Assembly: GCA_050011195.1 (NCBI GenBank)
Contig: JBEKJO010000027.1
Coordinates: 2,385 to 66,384, forward strand
Length of the DNA stretch: 64,000 bases
Direction of reading: 5' to 3'
Source: Verrucomicrobiota bacterium
GTDB lineage: Bacteria > Verrucomicrobiota > Verrucomicrobiia > Limisphaerales > UBA8199
Numbering within the stretch: position 1 is the stretch's first letter; each line of letters starts with the position of its first letter. Positions 2,707 to 53,839 of the stretch are shown in pieces. The notes below the pieces were generated by a model that was not told the origin of the DNA, did no database searches, and worked only from the letters and a program-made list of their open reading frames with translations. The translations under genes and the position numbers were made by a program.

Positions 2707-4962
2707 CTACTTCCTTTGTTCGGGGCTGGAATCGAGTGCGGCCAGGGCTTTCTGCGCCTCGGGATAATCCTGGCGCAGGCGCAACGCTTCCATGAATTGA
2801 GCTTTGGCCTCGGGCCGCCGCCCCTGCCGCAGCAGAGAGACCCCTAAGTTGAAATGGGTCTGGAAATCCTTCGGGTTGATCTCCAGCGCCTTCTGATAGT
2901 GAGGGATCGCCTCCTCCAGTTTATTCTGCGCCCCCAGCGCGTTGCCCAGGTTGCTCTGCGCTCCGGAATGGTCCGGCTTTAACCGAACCGCCTCTCGAAA
3001 CTGCCGCTCGGCCTCCGGGTATTTCCCCTGCATCGCGTAACAAATCCCCAGTCCGTTGCAGCTTTCCGCATGATTCGGATCGAGCCGCAATGCGGTCAGG
3101 TAATGCGCAATCGCTTCCTCCAGCTTGCCCGCCTCCGCCAGGTGATTCGCCAGATTATGCTCCGCGCTTTCATAATCCGGCTGCAATTGGAGCGCGGCGC
3201 GAAACTCAGCGATCGCCGCCTCAGCTTTTCCTTGCGCCTGCAAGGCCATCCCCAGGTTATGGTGGGCCTGGCTGGAATTCGGATTGAGCCGCAACGCCTG
3301 CTGGTAATTGGCGACCGCGTCGGCTGCTTTCCCCGCGTCCACCTGCGCATTGGCCAGATTGAAGTAATACAGGTATTCGGGCTTGAGCCGCACCGCTTCC
3401 GAATGGTGCGCGATGGCCTCCGCGAACCGTCCTTGACGCAGCAGCACGGTGCCGAGATTGTTGTGAGCCTCCGCGTAGTTCGGCTCGGCCTTAAGCGCGG
3501 CTTCATAATGCTGGACGGCCTCCGCCAGTTTGCCCTGCCGGCTATAGAGATTCCCGATATTGTAATGCGCCATGTAATTGCCCTCCACCGCCGTGATCAT
3601 CCGCTGGAAAAGGGTCTCGCTGTTCTTCCACCAGGCAATCTGCTTTCGCGTCAGGGCCATACATCCCGCCAGCACCACCGCGGTGGCGATCCCCAGCCCC
3701 GCCTTCGGCACCCGCCATGTGCCGGCCAGATCCCAAACGCCCCAGGCGACCGCGACGAAGATGCCGATCAGAGGAATATACGTATAGCGGTCCGCCATCG
3801 TCTGCATGCCCACCTGAACCAACCCAATGACCGGCACCAGCGTGCCCACATACCAAAACCAGCCGACTGCCAAATACGGACGGCTGCGAGCAAGCCGAAT
3901 CACCGCCACTGAGGCCGCCAGAAGAGCCATTGCCGCCAGGCCCACCTCCCATGCAGGCCAAGGCACCTTCCTCAAGTAGAGCGCCGCCAGATGTTCCGGC
4001 CAGAGCATCTTTCCGAGGTAACGGACATAGGACATCAAGGCGTTGGCCACCCGGGCGCCGATGGGGAGATTGTTTACATCCAGAACCGCTCCCCCGCTTT
4101 GCTGCACTTGGAAGGTGACGACGCACGAAGCCGCGCTGAGCAACAGGAACGGCACCTTCTCCAGGAGCAAGCGGAGTGATGGAGTGGTGGAGGGTTGGAG
4201 TGTTGGGAAGGAAAGGCGGCGCAGTGGCCAGAAATCGAGCAGCAACAACACGAACGGCACGGTCACCAACATCGGCTTGCTCATCAGGCCCAGCGCGAAC
4301 AGCAGCAGCGACAGGAGATAATAAAACGAAGATGGAGGATGGAGGATGGAGGATGGGGTTGGACCGACCGCATGTTGCGTGCTGCGGATTGTTGGATTCT
4401 GCATTCTGCATTCTGCATTCTTCCTTCCTCCTTCTGCCTTCTCCGCGTAACGCACATAAGCCCACAGGGTCAGCATGAAGAAGAACGTGCTCAGGACATC
4501 TTTCCGCTCGGCGACCCAGGCTACCGATTCGACATGCAGCGGATGGAGCGCAAACAGCGCCGCGACAACTCCGCTGCGCCACAGCGCGCCGGTCATTTTC
4601 CTAAGCAGGAGAAACAGCAAGAGGGTGTTGGCGATGTGGAAGAGCAGGCTCGTCAGGTGATGCCCCGCCGGCCTCATCCCATAGAGCTGGCAATCGAGTA
4701 TATGCGAAAGCATCGTGACCGGATGCCAATTGCGCGCGACGTCGCTGTGCCAGACCCAAGCCAGCCCCTTTGCGCTCAAGCCCGCCTGCACATAAGGATT
4801 CGCGGTGACGTAATCCGTGTCGTCGTAGTTGACGAATTCGTGCCCGGTCACCGGCCAATAAACCACCAGCGTGCTCAACGCCAGAAAGAGGCAGACGCAA
4901 AGCAAAGGCTTCCAAGACGGTTCTTGGCGGGGTGCTTCAACTGCGGCCATGACGGACGGCAC
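2707..4962 (-). CDS. Polytopic membrane protein with C-terminal TPR repeats (TMTC-like GT-C glycosyltransferase architecture)
   Basis: The N-terminal multi-TM region carries NYDDTDY and HPLHVESVAWV motifs typical of TMTC/DUF1736-like proteins. About ten TPR repeats follow (NLG..L...G....A...Y..AL...P). The ORF is intact but contains repeat-derived inserts. Confidence 0.75.
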   Translation of the reverse strand: MPSVMAAVEAPRQEPSWKPLLCVCLFLALSTLVVYWPVTGHEFVNYDDTDYVTANPYVQAGLSAKGLAWVWHSDVARNWHPVTMLSHILDCQLYGMRPAGHHLTSLLFHIANTLLLFLLLRKMTGALWRSGVVAALFALHPLHVESVAWVAERKDVLSTFFFMLTLWAYVRYAEKAEGGRKNAECRMQNPTIRSTQHAVGPTPSSILHPPSSFYYLLSLLLFALGLMSKPMLVTVPFVLLLLDFWPLRRLSFPTLQPSTTPSLRLLLEKVPFLLLSAASCVVTFQVQQSGGAVLDVNNLPIGARVANALMSYVRYLGKMLWPEHLAALYLRKVPWPAWEVGLAAMALLAASVAVIRLARSRPYLAVGWFWYVGTLVPVIGLVQVGMQTMADRYTYIPLIGIFVAVAWGVWDLAGTWRVPKAGLGIATAVVLAGCMALTRKQIAWWKNSETLFQRMITAVEGNYMAHYNIGNLYSRQGKLAEAVQHYEAALKAEPNYAEAHNNLGTVLLRQGRFAEAIAHHSEAVRLKPEYLYYFNLANAQVDAGKAADAVANYQQALRLNPNSSQAHHNLGMALQAQGKAEAAIAEFRAALQLQPDYESAEHNLANHLAEAGKLEEAIAHYLTALRLDPNHAESCNGLGICYAMQGKYPEAERQFREAVRLKPDHSGAQSNLGNALGAQNKLEEAIPHYQKALEINPKDFQTHFNLGVSLLRQGRRPEAKAQFMEALRLRQDYPEAQKALAALDSSPEQRK
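4173..4212. repeat. Octamer tandem array embedded in the CDS 2707-4962
   Basis: The sequence reads ggagtgat ggagtggt ggagggtt ggagtgtt. On the minus strand it is translated as ...FPTLQPSTTPSLRLL... Confidence 0.7.
4331..4444. repeat. Heptamer tandem arrays embedded in the CDS 2707-4962
   Basis: There are about four ggatgga units and then gcattct x3, followed by tccttcc/tccttct/gccttct units. The reverse complement matches the intergenic array at 8706-8746 (aaggcagaagg.ggaatgcagaatgcagaa). Confidence 0.7.
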
Positions 4963-5158
4963 TCTAGCCGGCTGCGCCTCAAACCCTCAAGCTGTTTCAG
5001 GGTCGTGAGAAACCCGGCGGCGCGTCCGAACAGTCAGACCTCCGCCCCGGCCCCGCCGCCGGCTCGCCAACCTGACGCCTTTGCCATTTCCACCGGCGGC
5101 TCTCGACTCGCGGCAAACAAGAATAGACAACGGGCAGACCAGCGAATATCCTGGCCAC

Positions 5159-5686
5159 ATGAAGATGATAAATTTCGCTCCGCTTGTAAAAGAGTCCAAT
5201 AAGCTCACCGATGACATCTTCGTCATCTACGACGAGCTAAAAAAGCACGACGCTGTGCTCTCGCGGCGTTTGATGGTCACGCAGGTCTTCGTTCAGATGG
5301 AGGCTCTTTCGAGCCTAGTTCGGAGCGTGATCAATGACTACTACGACAGCGGTAAGGGTGACGTCACAGAGCTGGACCGCGCTGATACCATCGTGATGCA
5401 CGGTGATGACTATCGAATTGACGATGACGGCAAGGTCACCTTGTCAAAGAAGAAGATCCGAACCCTGGCTCACGTCATGTATACCCTAAATTTCGCGGCT
5501 AGAATTCAAAAGAAGGTGTTCGATGCAAAGAAGGAAACGCATTGGCAGGACGTGGAACCCGCGATCAAGATTCGTAATCGCGTGACTCATCCGAAAAGTG
5601 TGAAAGACTTAGACGTCACCGAGAAAGAATTAGCCCTCGCGATGAACGCCATGCGTTGGTTCATATCGTGCTTGGCCAAGTTATGA
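5159..5686 (+). CDS. Hypothetical protein with a HEPN-like Rx4H motif
   Basis: The ATG at 5159 is where G+C drops. The 175-aa protein looks helical. The motif IKIRNRVTHP (R138-x4-H143) lies just before a terminal amphipathic helix, as in HEPN domains. The stop overlaps the next gene's start (ATGA at 5683-5686). Confidence 0.55.
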   Translation: MKMINFAPLVKESNKLTDDIFVIYDELKKHDAVLSRRLMVTQVFVQMEALSSLVRSVINDYYDSGKGDVTELDRADTIVMHGDDYRIDDDGKVTLSKKKIRTLAHVMYTLNFAARIQKKVFDAKKETHWQDVEPAIKIRNRVTHPKSVKDLDVTEKELALAMNAMRWFISCLAKL

Positions 5687-6294
5687 CTGAAGTGAAGAAA
5701 CAGGCCAACCAGTCGCTAGAGCCAACGCGAGGGGCAATCATGGCTCCTGCTGGCGCACGAGTCACGTCGGCCTCTCGTAACGCCTGCAGCGTCAATGGAA
5801 GGGACTGCGCATCAAAACCAATGACCTTCTTCAGCCGCCTTTCACCCGAGGAGATCGCCAATTATGACCCAATTCAGTTAGGGACAGGAGGCTTCTGTTT
5901 CCTGGTCGCTGAGTTGTTGATGGCGAAGCATCCACAGGCGGAACTCTGGCGGCTGACGAACCGAGAGGGCAAGACATACCCTCATGTGTTTGTGCGCATA
6001 GATGGAATGCCGTGTGACATCAACGGGTTTAGAAGCGTTGACGCGATGCGTTCCGATTGGGGCGACAATAGTCTGGTCGAGCAAATCGCTGATGCCCAAG
6101 CAATCAGGGATTTCTTTTATCCCAAGTATTCCCCTGAACAGTTGGCCGCAGCGAGATGCAGGTTAGCGCCGTTTGTGGGTGAATTGGTGGTTGCTTTTCG
6201 AGCGGGCCGGTTCAACCTCGACAACCAGCAGCCGACAACAAACGCCTCTGTGAAGCCAAAGGCTTGCAAAATGAGGGGCTTGCCAGCCGACTGA
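5683..6294 (+). CDS. Hypothetical protein, possibly a papain/transglutaminase-like Cys-His-Asp fold
   Basis: Its start is coupled to the upstream stop (ATGA). The motifs GTGGFCFLVAELL ... YPHVFVRIDGMPCDING resemble C...H...D triad spacing. I recognise no family. Confidence 0.55.
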   Translation: MTEVKKQANQSLEPTRGAIMAPAGARVTSASRNACSVNGRDCASKPMTFFSRLSPEEIANYDPIQLGTGGFCFLVAELLMAKHPQAELWRLTNREGKTYPHVFVRIDGMPCDINGFRSVDAMRSDWGDNSLVEQIADAQAIRDFFYPKYSPEQLAAARCRLAPFVGELVVAFRAGRFNLDNQQPTTNASVKPKACKMRGLPAD

Positions 6295-6333
6295 AACCAA
6301 ATAATCTGCCAACATGAAGGCGAATCGTTTGGG

Positions 6334-8406
6334 ATGGTCCCGGCTCTTTTGCTTATGAGTGCTGTTTTTCAGTCACCCGACCAGAAAAGCGGAGCGGATC
6401 GCGATTGGCTGGCTGGTCTCCGCGTCGATGCGGAAAAGGGCGATGCCGTTGCCCAGTTCACTCTGGGCGTAGTCTACGGCGATGGCGTAGGCGTGGCGAA
6501 GGATGAGGCGGAGGCGGTGAAGTGGTATCGTAGGGCCGCCGAGCAGAATCACGCTCTGGCTCGGAACAATCTGGGAGCTTGCTACCACAATGGCCAAGGC
6601 GTGGCGAAGGATTATCTGGAAGCGGTGAAGTGGTATCGCAAAGCCGCCGAGCAGAATCTCGCGCTTGGTCAATGTAACCTGGGCGTGTGCTACGGCAACG
6701 GCTACGGCGTGGCGAAGGATGAGGTGGAGGCGGTGAAGTGGTTCCGCAAAGCCGCCGAGCAGAATCTCGCGCTTGCTCAATATAATCTGGGCGTTTGCTA
6801 CGAGCGCGGCCAAGGCGTGGCCAAGAACGAGGTTGAGGCGGCGAAGTGGTACGCCAAAGCCGCTGAGCAGAATGACGCCGGTGGGCAATACAATCTAGGG
6901 CATTGCTACTACAAAGGCGAAGGCCTGCTGAAGGATGAGGCGGAGGCGGTGAAGTGGTGGCGCAAAGCCGCCGAGCAGAATCACTCGCTGGCTCAATGCT
7001 GGCTGGGCGTCTGCCATGCGCGTGGCCAAGGCGTAGTGAAGGATGAGGTGGAAGCGGTGAAGTGGTATCGCAAAGCCGCCGAGCAGAATATCGCCGCTGC
7101 TCAATGCTATCTCGGCTGGTGCTACACGGAGGGCCGAGGCGTAACGAAAGATAAGGTGGAGGCGGTGAAGTGGTATCGCAAAGCCGCCGGGCAGGATGAC
7201 GCCGATGCGCAATTCAATCTGGGCGTCTGTTACGAGAATGGCCAAGGCGTGGCCAAGGATACGGTAAAGGCGGTGAAGTGGTATCGCAAGGCCGCAGCCC
7301 AGGATCACGCCGATGCTCAATTCAATCTGGGCGTCTGTTACAAGAACGGCCAAGGCGTGGCAAAGGACGAGACGGAGGCGGTGAAGTGGTATCGTAAAGC
7401 CGCCGAGCAGAATGACCCTGATGCACAATACAATTTGGGCCTCTGCTATGCCAAAGGCCAAGGCGTGACCAGGGATACGGTGGAGGCAGTGAAGTGGTAT
7501 CGCCGGGCCGCCGCGCAGAATCACCCTCAGGCCCAATACAGCCTGCAGGGCGGCAGTGCTCCTTCAAGCCAACAAGAGCTGTCAAGGCTTGACGGCTTGG
7601 TGAGCCGCCTTAACAGTTTAATTGGACTTTCCAAGGTGAAGGAAGACGCCGCCCGACTCATTAACCTGGTCAAGGTCAGACGGATACGCCAGCAGAAAGG
7701 CATGAGGGTGACTCCCATGTCGCTACACTTGGTCTTTACCGGAAACCCGGGAACTGGCAAGACCACGGTAGCTCGTCTCCTGGGCGAGATTTACCATGAA
7801 ATTGGTATCCTGTCGAAAGGGCATCTCACTGAGACCGACCGGAGTGGGCTCGTGGCCGGTTACCTGGGGCAGACGGCGATCAAAGTGAGTGAGGTTGTCC
7901 AAGGAGCATTGGGGGGCATCCTCTTTATTGACGAGGCGTACTCGCTGGCACAGGAAGCACAGCGAGACCAATTCGGCAGAGAGGCGATTGATACCCTCAT
8001 AAAGCGAATGGAAGATCACCGCGACGATTTGATCGTCATCGTGGCGGGATACACGGAACCGATGAAAGCTTTTCTCGAATCAAATCCCGGACTTCGCTCC
8101 AGGTTTAACAAATTCCTACACTTCGATGATTATTCCCCACAGGAGCTTTTCCAGATCTTTACCAAGTATTGTGAGGACGAGGGCTACGCCTTCGCCAATA
8201 CTTCTGCTGGCAAAATTAAGGCCCTCATAAACCTGGCGCGCGAGAGGCGTGCCGCGAACTTCGGCAATGCCAGGACCATTCGAAATCTGTTTGAACAGAC
8301 GATCTCTAACCACGCAAACCGTGTCGCAAGTATTACAAACCCATCACAAAGCGACTTGACCACCATTTTGCCCCAAGATGTTCCAACCGTTGCCGCCACA
8401 AGATAA
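6334..8406 (+). CDS. Sel1-repeat (about 10 copies) protein fused to a CbbX/SpoVK-type AAA+ ATPase
   Basis: Ten 36-aa units of the form A..NLG.CY..G.GV.KD..EAVKWYRKAAEQ are present. The C-terminal part has Walker A GNPGTGKT, Walker B ILFIDEAY, and NPGLRSRF. Confidence 0.9.
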   Translation: MVPALLLMSAVFQSPDQKSGADRDWLAGLRVDAEKGDAVAQFTLGVVYGDGVGVAKDEAEAVKWYRRAAEQNHALARNNLGACYHNGQGVAKDYLEAVKWYRKAAEQNLALGQCNLGVCYGNGYGVAKDEVEAVKWFRKAAEQNLALAQYNLGVCYERGQGVAKNEVEAAKWYAKAAEQNDAGGQYNLGHCYYKGEGLLKDEAEAVKWWRKAAEQNHSLAQCWLGVCHARGQGVVKDEVEAVKWYRKAAEQNIAAAQCYLGWCYTEGRGVTKDKVEAVKWYRKAAGQDDADAQFNLGVCYENGQGVAKDTVKAVKWYRKAAAQDHADAQFNLGVCYKNGQGVAKDETEAVKWYRKAAEQNDPDAQYNLGLCYAKGQGVTRDTVEAVKWYRRAAAQNHPQAQYSLQGGSAPSSQQELSRLDGLVSRLNSLIGLSKVKEDAARLINLVKVRRIRQQKGMRVTPMSLHLVFTGNPGTGKTTVARLLGEIYHEIGILSKGHLTETDRSGLVAGYLGQTAIKVSEVVQGALGGILFIDEAYSLAQEAQRDQFGREAIDTLIKRMEDHRDDLIVIVAGYTEPMKAFLESNPGLRSRFNKFLHFDDYSPQELFQIFTKYCEDEGYAFANTSAGKIKALINLARERRAANFGNARTIRNLFEQTISNHANRVASITNPSQSDLTTILPQDVPTVAATR

Positions 8407-8439
8407 GAAATGTCATGCTGGGATGTTCGATGACGCTAA

Positions 8440-8706
8440 CCGATTCGCCGTTGCCCTCTGGCGGACGAGCGCGGCAACGTGGTCGGCGTGGTAGCCGCCA
8501 AGCTCAATGTGGCGGCAGCCGTGGCGACCAGCGGGGCGCTGCCCGAGAACGTGAACTACGCCGTCAAGAGCAGCCTCCTGCTCAGCTTCCTCGAATCCGT
8601 GCCGGAAGTGGCGGCCAAGCTCAAGGAGCCAGGCGCCCAAGACCGCAAGTTTGAGGACGTGGTGAAATCCGCCGAGCAAGCCGCCGTGCTGGTGTTGGTG
8701 TATTGA
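8440..8706 (+). pseudogene. 3' remnant of a trypsin-like (S1) serine protease gene
   Basis: The frame opens just after a stop at 8437-8439. Its translation, ..CPLADERGNVVGVVAAKLN...LPENVNYAVKSSLLLSFLESV.., corresponds to the C-terminal third of S1 proteases. The catalytic His, Asp and Ser regions are missing. Confidence 0.55.
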
Positions 8707-8746
8707 AGGGAAGGCAGAAGGCGGAATGCAGAATGCAGAAAGCGGG
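8706..8746. repeat. Heptamer tandem array
   Basis: The sequence reads aagggaa ggcagaa ggcggaa tgcagaa tgcagaa. Confidence 0.65.
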
Positions 8747-8795
8747 CAAGAGGATTTAACGCAGAGGCATAGCGCGGCAGAGCCGCAACCGAATT

Positions 8796-8900
8796 GCGCG
8801 AAGCGTTTGGAGTGCGTCCAGCTTGCTGGCGCTGTCGGGAGGCGGAGGAGGTGCGAAAGCGGGAGCAAGCTCCGCGCACTCCAAACGCTTCGCGTGGCAG
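8796..8900. repeat. Palindromic dispersed element, family B
   Basis: The arms gcgaagcgtttggagtgcg and cgcactccaaacgcttcgc are inverted repeats. Further copies lie at 24385, 53684 and (partial) 51218. Confidence 0.8.
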
Positions 8901-9406
8901 TTCGCCACTACCGCCAGGTTGGCATAACTTCGGGGATAAACCGCGTGTTGGGCTTGGCCGGTACACACTCCACCCCCGATTTTCGGCACCACTCAGACCG
9001 TCAACGGTGCTGCCTAGGCGCTACCCCAACGCGAGGGGGAGAGCAACTCCCCGGGGCGCGAGTCCGGGTCGGATGGGACTCCCCTGCGGCAGCGGCTCAG
9101 ACCGGGCCGGCAGGGGTCCGGGCGACCCAGACCCTCGGGTTTCGCGTAGGTAAGCATATTTTCCGCCAGGAGTCAAGCCCCAAGTGGAAAGAAGATGTTG
9201 GCCACCGGGCGCACCCCACCACCGCCATGGGAAGGCAGGGACCGCTGGCCTAGCTCTCCGCTGGCGCACAAACGCGGACGTTCCGGCGAGATGTCCCTGC
9301 CCTCTTGGCGGCAGTGCCCGGTTGCGCCCGTCGGCAGCCGGAATCCCAGTTACACCTTTCCAATCGGCGCATCGTGATTTAGGTTGCGGGGCCGCTCTCA
9401 GCGCAA

Positions 9407-50973: not shown

Positions 50974-51385
50974 ACGGGCGTATAACAAAAAAGGCCCTCG
51001 CTGTCAAGAACGAAAGCAACCGGCTGCGGGGCGGGCAACCACTCGCACCTGGGCGAGACCTGGCGGGGGTGGAAGTGGAAGTTGGGGCATGGTGTTCTGC
51101 GGTTGAATTCGTAGGGCGGCTCTTGACCGCGCCAGGCGAGGATGCGGCAGCGGAAGCATTTGTAGCGCGGGAGCCTCCTGCGGCTGAGGCCGGGCGTTCG
51201 ACAGCGGCAGCAAGCAGCCGCACTCCAAACGCTGGCGCGCAATTCGTCCGCTCTACGCGCAGGCGACGGAGCAGCATCGGCGGAATTCACTCTGCTCCAT
51301 AAAGCCGCGAAGGTTTCTCGATTCCTGGCTTGCACCCCGAGCGACAGCCGGTCAAAATGCATCCCGAACGAAAGACTTTGACTTT

Positions 51386-53557: not shown

Positions 53558-53683
53558 AGATCCAACCTTGTCCCAAACCAACGCGCCCATTGTGTCCGCC
53601 GAACTGCGCGACCAGTTGAACGGGTTGAAGGACCTGATTGATGCTCTGGTCACGTCCGGCGTGAGGGCGGTTTTGTGGATGAA

Positions 53684-53822
53684 CTGCCACGCGAAGCGTT
53701 TGGAGTGCGGAACGCCAGTTCCGCTTTCGGCTTTGACGCCGGCAAATCGCAAAGCACGGATGTGTCGCGTGCGTGAGTTGAAAGCGGCGCTGCCGCGCCG
53801 CACTCCAAAACGCTGCGCGCAG
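53684..53822. repeat. Palindromic dispersed element, family B
   Basis: The arms are ctgccacgcgaagcgtttggagtgcgg and ccgcactccaaaacgctgcgcgcag. Confidence 0.8.
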
Positions 53823-53839
53823 TTCGGTTGCGGTAGGCC

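What the first reader, a model, noticed from the sequence alone, without database searches (positions are those of the whole stretch)
5159..5686. Gene A: Rx4H motif placed as in HEPN ribonucleases
The 175-aa protein looks helical. R138-N-R-V-T-H143 is followed by a final amphipathic helix (EKELALAMNAMRWFISCLAKL). This matches the usual position of the HEPN catalytic motif, and the RN..[AT]H form is common in Abi-type HEPNs. A Gly/Asp-rich insertion (GDDYRIDDDGKV) lies between helices.
Basis: partly seen in the sequence, partly recalled or inferred. Interest (0 to 1): 0.55.

Follow-up and report, generated by a model that had tools for sequence, protein, structure and literature searches.

The report
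Unnamed HEPN-type RNase gene in island
Gene A very probably encodes a small RNA-cutting enzyme of the well-known HEPN type, from a widespread family that no database names yet, and it is the first gene of a foreign, mosaic gene island that looks like a bacterial self-defence module.

Summary
The ORF is real (5159-5686, +, 175 aa). The motif is there but is numbered one residue too low: it is R139-N-R-V-T-H144. On its own the motif is weak evidence, because 25% of shuffles of this protein contain an Rx4H. The weight comes from the family. An exhaustive HMMER search finds 896 cluster representatives. In 176 aligned members H144 and P145 never change, R139 is kept in 97%, residue 140 is N/D/H in 99%, and E48 is kept in 94%. 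A confident AlphaFold model (pLDDT 89.7) puts the motif at the end of the penultimate core helix, E48 in helix 2, and the Gly/Asp insert as a beta-hairpin between helices 2 and 3. This matches the published HEPN rules. The top fold matches in two libraries are HEPN proteins, but marginally (E about 0.05, probability 0.98-0.99). No curated model reaches threshold; the nearest is RiboL-PSP-HEPN. Gene A is the first gene of a low-GC mosaic island (5039-8706): HEPN, YunG-like protein, Sel1-AAA+ ATPase. In a related island an AbiU2 HEPN fills the same slot. A near-identical strain differs by one SNP in 2.2 kb, and that SNP is R139H. This is a new, unnamed family of a known kind, and its RNase activity is untested.

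The parts
5159..5686 (+). Gene A: 175-aa protein (173 aa if translation starts at the ATG at 5165). Member of an unnamed HEPN-superfamily family.
   Evidence: ORF and translation. Family of 896 representatives. AlphaFold model with pLDDT 89.7. Top fold matches are HEPN proteins.
5573..5590 (+). Codons for R139-N140-R141-V142-T143-H144, the predicted catalytic Rx4H motif. G5574 is the one base that differs in the near-identical contig L041 (CGT to CAT, R139H).
   Evidence: conservation; end of helix 129-143, with H144 the first loop residue; SNP.
5300..5302 (+). Codon for E48, the conserved acidic residue in helix 2 (helix 33-63). R37 (5267-5269) lies in the same helix and is also 95% conserved.
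   Evidence: HEPN rule from PMC3710099.
5402..5449 (+). Residues 82-97: the Gly/Asp-rich insert, modelled as a beta-hairpin between core helices 2 and 3. G91 is 98% conserved.
5039..5158 (+). Conserved non-coding leader of the island. It includes a promoter-like TAGACA-17-TATCCT at 5124-5152. The leader is shared with related islands that begin with three different first genes.
   Evidence: alignment A7.
5778..5796 (+). Junction in the A-B spacer. At this point the L001/L040/L042-type islands carry an extra 232-aa gene that the window lacks.
5821..6294 (+). Gene B: 157-aa YunG-like protein (PF24591). It is the constant member of the related islands.
   Evidence: Model pLDDT 85 with no PDB fold match.
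6334..8406 (+). Gene C: 690-aa protein with about 10 Sel1 repeats followed by a CbbX/SpoVK/EccA-type AAA+ ATPase and AAA lid.
   Evidence: 74% identical to the L001 homologue.
8458..8706 (+). Remnant (82 codons, 94% identical) of the C-terminal end of the Sel1-trypsin protein found in related islands. It marks the 3' end of the island and shows that the AAA+ module replaced a trypsin module.

Best explanation
Gene A encodes a divergent, single-domain HEPN-superfamily endoribonuclease.

Shown:
- It belongs to a large, patchily distributed bacterial family.
- The family's only strongly conserved polar residues are R37 and E48 (helix 2) and R139, N/D/H140, R141 and H144-P145 (end of helix 3 and the following loop).
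- These residues sit on a confidently predicted four-helix HEPN-like core with a hairpin insert.

Inferred from established HEPN biochemistry (RNase L/Ire1 KEN, PrrC/RloC, HepT, Cas13, Csm6):
- H144 activates a ribose 2'-OH.
- R139 and N140 stabilise the transition state, and E48, R37 and R141 support them.
- Cleavage is metal-independent and leaves 2',3'-cyclic phosphate and 5'-OH ends.
- The active site is probably completed across a homodimer interface.

Context (partly shown, partly inferred):
- The gene is the first gene of a horizontally acquired, mosaic island with lower GC (49-57% against 61%), spanning 5039-8706.
- The island is read from a conserved promoter-like leader.
- Its layout is [swappable HEPN] - [optional unknown gene] - [YunG-like protein] - [Sel1-repeat protein with a swappable C-terminal module, AAA+ ATPase here and trypsin elsewhere].

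The most likely role is a toxic RNase effector of an abortive-infection or conflict module, kept silent until a trigger arrives. The Sel1-AAA+ protein is the candidate sensor or regulator.
For: Family and motif:
- 896 representatives. H144 and P145 are invariant, R139 is 97% conserved, residue 140 is N/D/H in 99%, R141 95%, E48 94%, R37 95%.

Structure:
- pLDDT 89.7, pTM 0.82. The motif lies at the end of helix 129-143, E48 in helix 33-63, and the insert at 64-128.
- This agrees with the HEPN rules quoted.

Fold search:
- the top four PDB hits are HepT HEPN toxins (probability 0.87-0.99, TM 0.41-0.52, rmsd about 5 A).
- the top BFVD hit is a MAE_28990/MAE_18760-like HEPN (probability 0.98).
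- gene B, run as a control, gives no such hit (best probability 0.07).

Profiles:
- the only recurring sub-threshold families are HEPN_RiboL-PSP (5 of 70) and RTasHEPN (6 of 70). Single members also hit Csm6 and DUF3644. The one hit whose coordinates I saw (P0161) lies on the motif region.
- UniRef calls one member 'RiboL-PSP-HEPN domain-containing'.

Genomic position:
- in islands with a 79%-identical gene B and a 62%-identical Sel1 region, an AbiU2 HEPN (Pfam E 1.4e-16) occupies gene A's position.
- PMC3710099 had already noted AbiU2 in operons with Sel1-repeat genes.

RNA-repair link:
- two members lie next to RtcB and Ro60 inside long tRNA-gene arrays. RtcB ligates exactly the ends that HEPN RNases produce.

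Selection:
- the only difference in 2195 bp from a near-identical contig is R139H.
- dN/dS is 0.39 against the 82%-identical homologue, so the gene is under constraint but evolving fast.
Against: - No curated model (Pfam, NCBIfam) matches the window protein even at E<=10. The PADLOC hit is E 0.035 over 24 residues.
- Profile searches against PDB sequences found nothing meaningful: only chance-level hits to a cytochrome with A1 (E>1) and none with A2.
- Foldseek E-values are marginal (0.045 and 0.057), and no hit reaches 1e-3.
- hhalign of the family profile against one AbiU2 sequence shows no similarity.
- I had no model coordinates, so exposure and geometry of R139, H144 and E48 were not measured.
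- Across 29 non-redundant loci the family has no recurrent neighbour and often sits between housekeeping genes. No antitoxin or regulator is evident, and coupling to genes B and C rests on only two island types.
- Related Sel1-trypsin proteins start with what reads (by eye, no predictor run) as a signal-peptide-like segment. That fits poorly with a cytoplasmic partner of an RNase.
- The R139H variant could equally mean that the activity is dispensable.
Confidence: 0.72

Rival explanations
1. Gene A is a self-contained, single-gene Abi-like HEPN toxin or stress RNase. It is merely adjacent to genes B and C. The island is a mosaic of unrelated cargo, and B and C have their own function, possibly in the envelope.
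For: - In 29 non-redundant loci the family is a solo gene with no recurrent neighbour.
- Gene B homologues occur without any gene-A-family member.
- Related Sel1-trypsin proteins start with what reads (by eye) as a signal-peptide-like N-terminus.
- The A-B spacer is 134 bp and is the site of a gene gain or loss.
Against: - Four island types share the same leader, the same gene order, and a HEPN or other small gene in the first slot.
- AbiU2-Sel1 operons were noted independently.
- No convincing terminator lies between A, B and C on the + strand.
Confidence: 0.3
2. Gene A is an RNA-processing or RNA-quality-control nuclease that works with RNA repair, for example controlled tRNA cleavage followed by RtcB re-ligation. 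It would not be a defence toxin.
For: - Two members (41% identical to each other) lie within horizontally spread long tRNA arrays, next to RtcB and Ro60.
- Such arrays are known to have RNA-processing neighbourhoods and co-regulated rtcB (PMC8421152).
- Some other members lie next to aminoacyl-tRNA synthetase or release-factor genes.
Against: - Only 2 of about 31 loci have tRNA arrays or RtcB.
- The window has neither near gene A.
- Patchy distribution, low GC and fast evolution fit a conflict gene better.
Confidence: 0.15
3. Gene A has the HEPN fold but is not a nuclease. It would be a ligand- or RNA-binding or regulatory subunit, like the HEPN domains attached to nucleotidyltransferases, or it is already decaying.
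For: - The near-identical strain carries R139H.
- dN/dS of 0.39 is relaxed for an enzyme.
- The 232-aa neighbour present in sister islands has been lost here.
Against: - According to PMC3710099, non-catalytic HEPN domains lose the Rx4-6H motif. Here the motif, the polar residue after R, and the helix-2 acid are all near-invariant in 176 sequences, and the window copy keeps all of them.
Confidence: 0.1
4. The motif is a coincidence on an unrelated helical bundle, so the protein is not a HEPN.
For: - Rx4H occurs in 25% of shuffles.
- No threshold-passing profile or fold match exists.
Against: - The motif is conserved across the family, and its placement matches the HEPN rule.
- HEPN proteins top two independent fold libraries.
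- Sub-threshold HEPN profile hits recur in two profile libraries.
Confidence: 0.06

Closest known systems
RiboL-PSP-HEPN family (Pfam PF18735; Anantharaman et al. 2013)
   Same: It is the only Pfam family that recurs among family members: 5 of 70 hit it (best E 0.0031), and the one hit whose coordinates I saw lies on the motif region. UniRef gives one member this name. Both carry a conserved R-[polar]-x3-H. The paper describes RiboL-PSP-HEPN as distantly related to the Abi proteins AbiD and AbiF.
   Different: No member I inspected individually comes near the gathering score: P0161 scores 12.9 bits against 28.4, and the window protein scores nothing. There is no fusion to an L-PSP endoribonuclease, and no ParB neighbour was seen among those surveyed. 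The extended signature K-I-R-[NDH]-R-[IL]-T-H-P-K, W129, W167 and the G91 hairpin define this family in my alignments; I could not check them against the RiboL-PSP model.
HepT toxin of HEPN/MNT toxin-antitoxin systems (PDB 8yuf, 8xdj; also 1wty)
   Same: Best structural matches in the PDB: probability 0.87-0.99, TM 0.41-0.52, rmsd about 5 A. Both are small stand-alone HEPN proteins with an Rx4H RNase motif.
   Different: Sequence identity is 8%. Gene A is about 40 residues longer, with a helix and hairpin insert. No MNT nucleotidyltransferase antitoxin gene lies next to it in the window, and no recurrent partner of any kind appears in 29 family loci.
AbiU2 HEPN with Sel1-repeat operon partner (PF18734; Anantharaman et al. 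2013, Table 1)
   Same: In L046/L047 an AbiU2 HEPN occupies the first slot of an island that has the same leader, a 79%-identical YunG-like gene and a related Sel1-repeat gene. The HEPN-Sel1 pairing is the published AbiU2 context.
   Different: There is no detectable sequence similarity between the gene A family and AbiU2 (hhalign probability 0.07; no PF18734 hit). AbiU2 has Rx5H (RHKRLSH) and gene A has Rx4H. This looks like non-orthologous replacement, not membership.
MAE_28990/MAE_18760-like HEPN and RT-associated HEPN (PADLOC RTasHEPN, DRT systems)
   Same: The top BFVD fold hit is a MAE_28990/MAE_18760-like HEPN (probability 0.98). RTasHEPN is the only recurring PADLOC family (6 of 70, best E 0.0056; window protein E 0.035 over residues 121-144).
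   Different: All matches are sub-threshold. No reverse transcriptase, ParB or methylase partner is present in the window, and none was seen among the family neighbours.

Membership tests
HEPN superfamily | Rx4-6H motif with a polar residue (N/D/H) right after the R, conserved across the family | tested here: met
   R139-N-R-V-T-H144 in the window. In 176 members R139 is 97% conserved, residue 140 is N/D/H in 99%, and H144 is kept in 175/175. Rule quoted from PMC3710099.
HEPN superfamily | Motif located at the end of core helix 3 and the start of the loop to helix 4, followed by a final helix | tested here: met
   In the AlphaFold model (pLDDT 89.7), helix 129-143 ends with R139-T143, H144 is the first loop residue, and the final helix is 155-174. 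Rule.
HEPN superfamily | Conserved acidic residue in helix 2 near the motif, and a variable insert between helices 2 and 3 | tested here: met
   E48 (94% conserved, plus 3 Asp) lies in helix 33-63. The insert at 64-128 holds a short helix, a beta-hairpin and helix 102-116. The spacing to the next basic residue is Ex6[KR], not the typical Ex3[KR].
HEPN superfamily | Statistically significant profile or fold match to a recognised HEPN family | tested here: inconclusive
HEPN superfamily | Solvent-exposed catalytic His, and R/H facing a dimer cleft | not testable with these tools
HEPN superfamily | Metal-independent RNase activity that gives 2',3'-cyclic phosphate ends | not testable with these tools
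   This needs biochemistry.
RiboL-PSP-HEPN (PF18735) | Score at or above the Pfam gathering threshold (28.4 bits) | tested here: not met
   The window protein has no hit at E<=10. P0161, the only member whose score was shown, gives 12.9 bits; 5 of 70 members hit, best E 0.0031, none of the ten central members scanned individually passes.
RiboL-PSP-HEPN (PF18735) | Fusion to an endoribonuclease L-PSP domain, or an operon with ParB | tested here: not met
   The family consists of single-domain proteins of about 170-250 aa. No ParB appeared among the neighbours that could be seen; the census lists only the 25 commonest Pfam families.
HEPN/MNT (HepT-MntA) toxin-antitoxin | Adjacent minimal nucleotidyltransferase antitoxin gene | tested here: not met
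   The window neighbours are a GT39/TPR gene on the opposite strand and the YunG-like gene. The neighbour census found no recurrent partner, and no nucleotidyltransferase among the listed families.
AbiU2 (PF18734) | Sequence match to the AbiU2 model | tested here: not met
   No Pfam hit. hhalign against the L046 AbiU2 sequence gives probability 0.07.
AbiU2 (PF18734) | Operon with a Sel1-repeat gene (contextual feature from the 2013 survey) | tested here: met
   Gene C has 10 Sel1 repeats. The syntenic island L046 has AbiU2 in gene A's slot.
Type II toxin-antitoxin module (generic) | A small, tightly linked partner gene conserved across the toxin family | tested here: not met
   No recurrent neighbour in 29 non-redundant loci.

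The most novel reading that the evidence does not exclude
Gene A is the swappable RNase effector of an uncharacterised, modular bacterial conflict system. The system is read from a conserved leader and has the layout [HEPN of any family] - [optional unknown protein] - [YunG-like protein] - [Sel1-repeat sensor with exchangeable output, either AAA+ ATPase or trypsin protease]. This HEPN family, which is not captured by Pfam, NCBIfam or PADLOC, targets tRNA, as its placement inside RtcB/Ro60 long tRNA arrays hints. The single R139H SNP in a sister strain would then be a natural escape from self-toxicity.
Probability: 0.3. Interest if true: 0.65.

Novelty: new member of a known kind. Interest (0 to 1): 0.42.

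Why it matters
HEPN RNases are the effectors of Cas13, Csm6, RNase L, many toxin-antitoxin pairs and many abortive-infection systems. Finding unannotated families shows how much of this arsenal is still hidden.

This family has about 900 clusters at 50% identity and spans many bacterial phyla. RefSeq annotates one member as 'hypothetical protein', and neither NCBIfam nor PADLOC matched the window protein, so genome annotation and defence-finders probably miss it. Three things make it a useful entry point:

- In a conserved island scaffold it is interchangeable with an AbiU2 HEPN. That gives a natural experiment on how HEPN effectors are plugged into Sel1/AAA+/protease modules.
- Two members sit inside horizontally spread long tRNA arrays with RtcB and Ro60. 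This links an RNase that makes 2',3'-cyclic phosphate ends to the ligase that repairs them.
- A one-SNP natural variant hits the predicted catalytic arginine.

None of this changes a paradigm. It is a solid, testable annotation, not a new kind of system.

Tried and rejected
- Direct family scans of the window protein (Pfam, NCBIfam, PHROGs, PADLOC) gave nothing usable.
- Sequence and profile searches against PDB chains gave only chance hits to a cytochrome, or nothing.
- The word-index protein search found only two close homologues. The exhaustive representative search was needed to reveal the family.
- hhalign of the family profile against the extra 232-aa gene of L001 and against an AbiU2 sequence showed no relationship. 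I therefore rejected the idea that the 232-aa gene is a paralogue of gene A.
- A search for a conserved partner or antitoxin (27 GTDB loci plus 8 metagenome loci, neighbours clustered by BLAST, and a Pfam census of 103 neighbours) found none. The simple toxin-antitoxin reading was rejected.
- The metagenome scan with gene A added only one more island copy.
- Phage origin is not supported at the sensitivity used. There is no match in INPHARED (one tblastn query), one IMG/VR contig matched under a single narrow motif pattern, and two megaplasmids. Gene B has no match in IMG/VR.
- The Rfam scan of the window found no RNA element near the island.
- The gene B model has no PDB fold match.
- A literature search for 'YunG' returned only people's names.

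Full report
1. THE OBSERVATION

The ORF is as described. An ATG at 5159 opens a reading frame that ends with the stop codon at 5684-5686 and encodes 175 aa. A second in-frame ATG at 5165 (M3) coincides with the start of the closest independent homologue (L001), so the mature protein may be 173 aa.

The motif RNRVTH is real, but it lies at residues 139-144, not 138-143. GDDYRIDDDGKV is residues 82-93, and EKELALAMNAMRWFISCLAKL is residues 155-175.

The motif in one sequence is weak evidence. In 20,000 shuffles of this protein, 25% contain Rx4H, 58% contain Rx4-6H and 4.5% contain R[NDH]x3H. A second, non-conserved Rx6H (R74..H81) is also present. The gene has 49% G+C in a 61% G+C window.

2. 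A REAL AND LARGE FAMILY, UNSEEN BY CURATED MODELS

Pfam and NCBIfam gave no hit even at E<=10, and PHROGs gave only noise above E 0.1. PADLOC gave one weak hit to an RT-associated HEPN model (E 0.035, residues 121-144). The word-index search found only two near relatives.

An exhaustive HMMER search of 1.84 billion cluster representatives found 896 proteins at E<=1e-3 and 44 at E<=1e-10. Nearly all are stand-alone proteins of 170-250 aa. I aligned 176 members to the family HMM:

| Position | Conservation |
|---|---|
| H144 | 175/175 |
| P145 | 175/175 |
| R139 | 97% |
| Residue 140 | N 80, D 71, H 23, A 1 |
| R141 | 95% |
| K146 | 91% |
| E48 | 94% (plus 3 Asp) |
| R37 | 95% |
| G91, W129, W167 | 98% each |

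The family signature is K-[IV]-R-[NDH]-R-[ILV]-T-H-P-K.

A scan of GTDB species genomes with one narrow motif pattern returned 27 loci. They come from Acidobacteriota, Deinococcota, Bacteroidota, Ignavibacteriales, Nitrospirota, Nitrospinota, Planctomycetota, Verrucomicrobiota, Kiritimatiellia, Calditrichaceae and several Proteobacteria. This is a patchy distribution of the kind seen with horizontal spread.

At the sensitivity used, the family is close to absent from plasmids (2 of 72,556 records, both megaplasmids), absent from INPHARED phages, and present in one IMG/VR contig.

3. IS IT A HEPN DOMAIN?

Anantharaman et al. 2013 (PMC3710099, read) give these rules:
- An Rx4-6H motif whose R is followed by a polar residue, mostly N, D or H.
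- A conserved acidic residue in helix 2.
- Frequent inserts between helices 2 and 3.

An AlphaFold2 model built on a 31-sequence alignment is confident (pLDDT 89.7, pTM 0.82). It has helices 7-29 and 33-63, then an insert (short helix 74-81, beta-hairpin 83-87/93-97, helix 102-116), then helix 129-143, a short turn, and helix 155-174.

R139-T143 form the last turn of helix 129-143, and H144 is the first loop residue. E48 and R37 lie in helix 33-63. All four rules are met.

Fold search:
- Foldseek against the PDB puts four HepT HEPN-toxin chains (8yuf, 8xdj) at ranks 1-4. They have probability 0.87-0.99, TM 0.41-0.52 and rmsd about 5 A, but E only 0.045-0.3. Another HEPN protein, 1wty, appears further down.
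- Foldseek against BFVD puts a MAE_28990/MAE_18760-like HEPN protein first (E 0.057, probability 0.98).
- As a control, a model of gene B of similar quality gives no hit with probability above 0.07.

Profile scans of 70 family members:
- The only Pfam family hit by more than two members is HEPN_RiboL-PSP (5 members, best E 0.0031). One member hits DUF3644, which the 2013 paper says overlaps a HEPN family.
- The only recurring PADLOC family is RTasHEPN (6 members), and one member hits Csm6.
- For the two hits whose coordinates I saw (P0161 in Pfam, the window protein in PADLOC), the match lies on the motif region.
- UniRef names one member a RiboL-PSP-HEPN domain protein.

4. THE NEIGHBOURHOOD IN THE WINDOW

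Gene A is the first gene of a block that is conserved at about 80% DNA identity with metagenome contig L001 but has different flanks. In the window a GT39/TPR gene lies upstream on the other strand. In L001 the upstream gene looks, by eye, like the C-terminal end of an SMC-type ATPase (not scanned).

The block begins at 5039 with a conserved non-coding leader. This leader contains a promoter-like TAGACA-17-TATCCT at 5124-5152. The block then carries:
- Gene A.
- Gene B (5821-6294), a 157-aa YunG-like protein. Pfam PF24591 is below the gathering threshold for the window copy, but it is pre-computed for many homologues.
- Gene C (6334-8406), with about 10 Sel1 repeats followed by a CbbX/SpoVK/EccA-type AAA+ ATPase.

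L001-type islands carry an extra 232-aa gene of unknown family between A and B. The window lacks it, and the junction is at 5778-5796.

Immediately after gene C, 8458-8706 encodes an 82-residue remnant. It is 94% identical to the C-terminal end of the Sel1-trypsin protein of a related island. The AAA+ module therefore displaced a trypsin module, and the island extends to 8706.

5. RELATED ISLANDS SHOW A MODULAR SCAFFOLD

I followed gene B's homologues:
- L046/L047 have the same leader, then an AbiU2 HEPN (PF18734, E 1.4e-16), a 331-aa unknown protein, a YunG-like protein 79% identical to gene B, and a Sel1+trypsin protein.
- L042 has the leader, a 205-aa unknown protein, the 232-aa gene, a YunG-like protein, and a Sel1+trypsin protein.
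- L044/L045 place the YunG-like gene beside a divergently oriented AAA_13 ATPase and a trypsin-like gene.

So the first slot is filled by HEPN proteins of two unrelated-looking families (hhalign probability 0.07 between them) or by an unknown protein. The YunG-like gene and the Sel1 scaffold stay constant. [quoted passage not shown] No other paper in the searchable library mentions both AbiU2 and Sel1.

This positional equivalence is independent support for reading gene A as a HEPN effector. It also suggests, without proving, a functional link to genes B and C.

6. THE FAMILY ELSEWHERE IS MOSTLY A SOLO GENE

I examined 29 non-redundant loci. I clustered the three genes on each side by BLAST, and ran a Pfam census on the two genes on each side (103 proteins). 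Neither found a recurrent partner. Many flanks are housekeeping genes such as MetH, LeuRS, a class I aminoacyl-tRNA synthetase, a peptide release factor and isocitrate dehydrogenase.

Other members lie near restriction or PD-(D/E)XK nuclease genes, or in a region with ParDE, HipA-domain and NYN-domain genes.

The exception is a pair of loci, L004 and L007. There the family member (41% identity between the two) lies right next to RtcB or Ro60, inside long arrays of 22-25 tRNA genes, with HNH endonuclease genes in both and a weak PIN hit in L004. None of the other roughly 31 loci has such an array.

Long tRNA arrays that spread horizontally, with HNH and co-regulated rtcB in their neighbourhood, have been described before (PMC8421152). 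RtcB joins 2',3'-cyclic-phosphate and 5'-OH ends, which are the products of HEPN RNases. This is a suggestive link between the family and RNA, perhaps tRNA, cleavage, but it holds for one clade only.

7. POPULATION AND SELECTION SIGNALS

Contig L041, from another metagenome, is identical to the window over 4627-6821 (2195 bp) except for G5574A. That change converts R139 to His. The differences beyond 6822 lie in the Sel1 repeats and look like a shift in repeat register.

If one SNP fell at random in 2195 bp, the chance of it landing in this codon is about 0.1%. For any of the roughly nine family-invariant codons the chance is about 1%. This is a single anecdote, but it fits selection against a costly activity, or a tolerated weakening of it.

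Against the 82%-identical L001 copy, dN/dS is 0.39 for gene A, 0.39 for gene B and 0.19 for the AAA+ part of gene C. The genes are constrained but evolving fast, as conflict genes often are.

8. MECHANISM

Shown:
- The conserved residues.
- The predicted fold and the placement of the motif.
- The mosaic structure of the island.
- The slot equivalence with AbiU2.

Inferred from established HEPN enzymology (summarised):
- H144 acts as the general base on the 2'-OH.
- R139 and N140 stabilise the transition state, helped by E48, R37 and R141.
- Cleavage needs no metal and yields 2',3'-cyclic phosphate ends.
- The active site is probably formed across a dimer.

Speculative:
- The Sel1-AAA+ protein senses a trigger and releases or activates the RNase.
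- The YunG-like protein is an adaptor or inhibitor.
- The substrate is tRNA.

One difficulty is that the related Sel1-trypsin proteins start with what reads, by eye, as a signal-peptide-like segment (no predictor was run). That would place them outside the cytoplasm. In the window's gene C this segment looks degenerate.

9. VERDICT

The HEPN interpretation is supported by convergent evidence, but no single match is statistically decisive and there is no biochemistry.

Gene A belongs to a widespread, unnamed HEPN family. Its nearest relative is RiboL-PSP-HEPN, of which it is not a member by Pfam's threshold. It is a new member of a known kind. Interest is moderate (0.42), raised somewhat by the modular island, the RtcB/tRNA-array link and the R139H variant.

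Noticed in passing
window 8458-8706 (+): Directly after gene C's stop there is an 82-codon remnant, 94% identical to the C-terminal end of the Sel1-trypsin protein of a related island (L042). The AAA+ ATPase module of gene C therefore replaced, or was inserted into, an ancestral Sel1-trypsin gene. The AAA+ part is also the lowest-GC stretch of gene C (50-52%).
   Followed up: yes
window 5574 against L041 position 948: Contig L041, from another metagenome, is identical to the window over 2195 bp (4627-6821) except for one base, G5574A. That base change turns the predicted catalytic R139 of gene A into His.
   Followed up: yes
L004 1-12642 and L007 1-10642: Two distant members of the gene A family lie inside long tRNA gene arrays (22 and 25 tRNA hits in about 12 kb, all on one strand). 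The arrays are interleaved with RtcB, Ro60 (TROVE/vWA) and HNH genes, plus a weak PIN hit in L004. The RtcB proteins are 83% identical while the HEPN proteins are only 41% identical.
   Followed up: partly
window 5039-5158; L001 1071-1245; L042 about 4440-4645; L046 about 600-780: A conserved non-coding leader precedes three different first genes (this HEPN family, an AbiU2 HEPN, and an unknown 205-aa protein). Its core reads GCAAACAAGAAT[A/G]GACAACGGGCA[A/G]AC...GAATA[T/C]CCT and overlaps a promoter-like TAGACA-17-TATCCT. In the window the ATG follows the -10-like hexamer by only 6 nt, so the mRNA may be leaderless.
   Followed up: partly
L001 1900-2598; L042 5288-5986; junction at window 5778-5796: A 232-aa gene with no Pfam family lies between the HEPN slot and the YunG-like gene in sister islands (the two copies are 80% identical). 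It is absent from the window. A 19-bp overlap of the two BLAST segments at the junction suggests deletion or insertion through a short repeat. hhalign shows no relation to gene A.
   Followed up: partly
window 5821-6294 (gene B): The YunG-like protein gives a confident AlphaFold model (pLDDT 85; mixed alpha/beta with a long C-terminal helix) but has no Foldseek match in the PDB. Invariant E41, H55, D66 and R71 could mark a functional site. Its function is unknown.
   Followed up: partly
L042 6518-8515 and L046 2884-4551, compared with window 6334-8406: The related Sel1-trypsin proteins begin with what reads, by eye, as a signal-peptide-like segment (MKANRLRWFLLFLLVSAVLQLPAQQ). The window's Sel1-AAA+ protein keeps only a degenerate version (MVPALLLMSAVFQSP). 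This raises the question of where these proteins act. No signal-peptide predictor was run.
   Followed up: no
window 8705-8743 and 4397-4441 (opposite strand); also 8783-8903 against about 51200-51250 and 53680-53830: Short repeated DNA is present. A GAATGCAGAATGCAGAA-type heptad run lies after the island, with a second, reverse-oriented copy inside the GT39/TPR ORF. An imperfect palindromic repeat at 8790-8900 has partial copies near 51.2 kb and 53.7 kb.
   Followed up: no
L048 (Salinivibrio kushneri megaplasmid NZ_CP114591.1, 457497-458018): RefSeq annotates a family member as 'hypothetical protein'. It lies 39 bp downstream of a DUF2971 gene, in a stretch with ParDE, HipA-domain and NYN-domain genes.
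   Followed up: no
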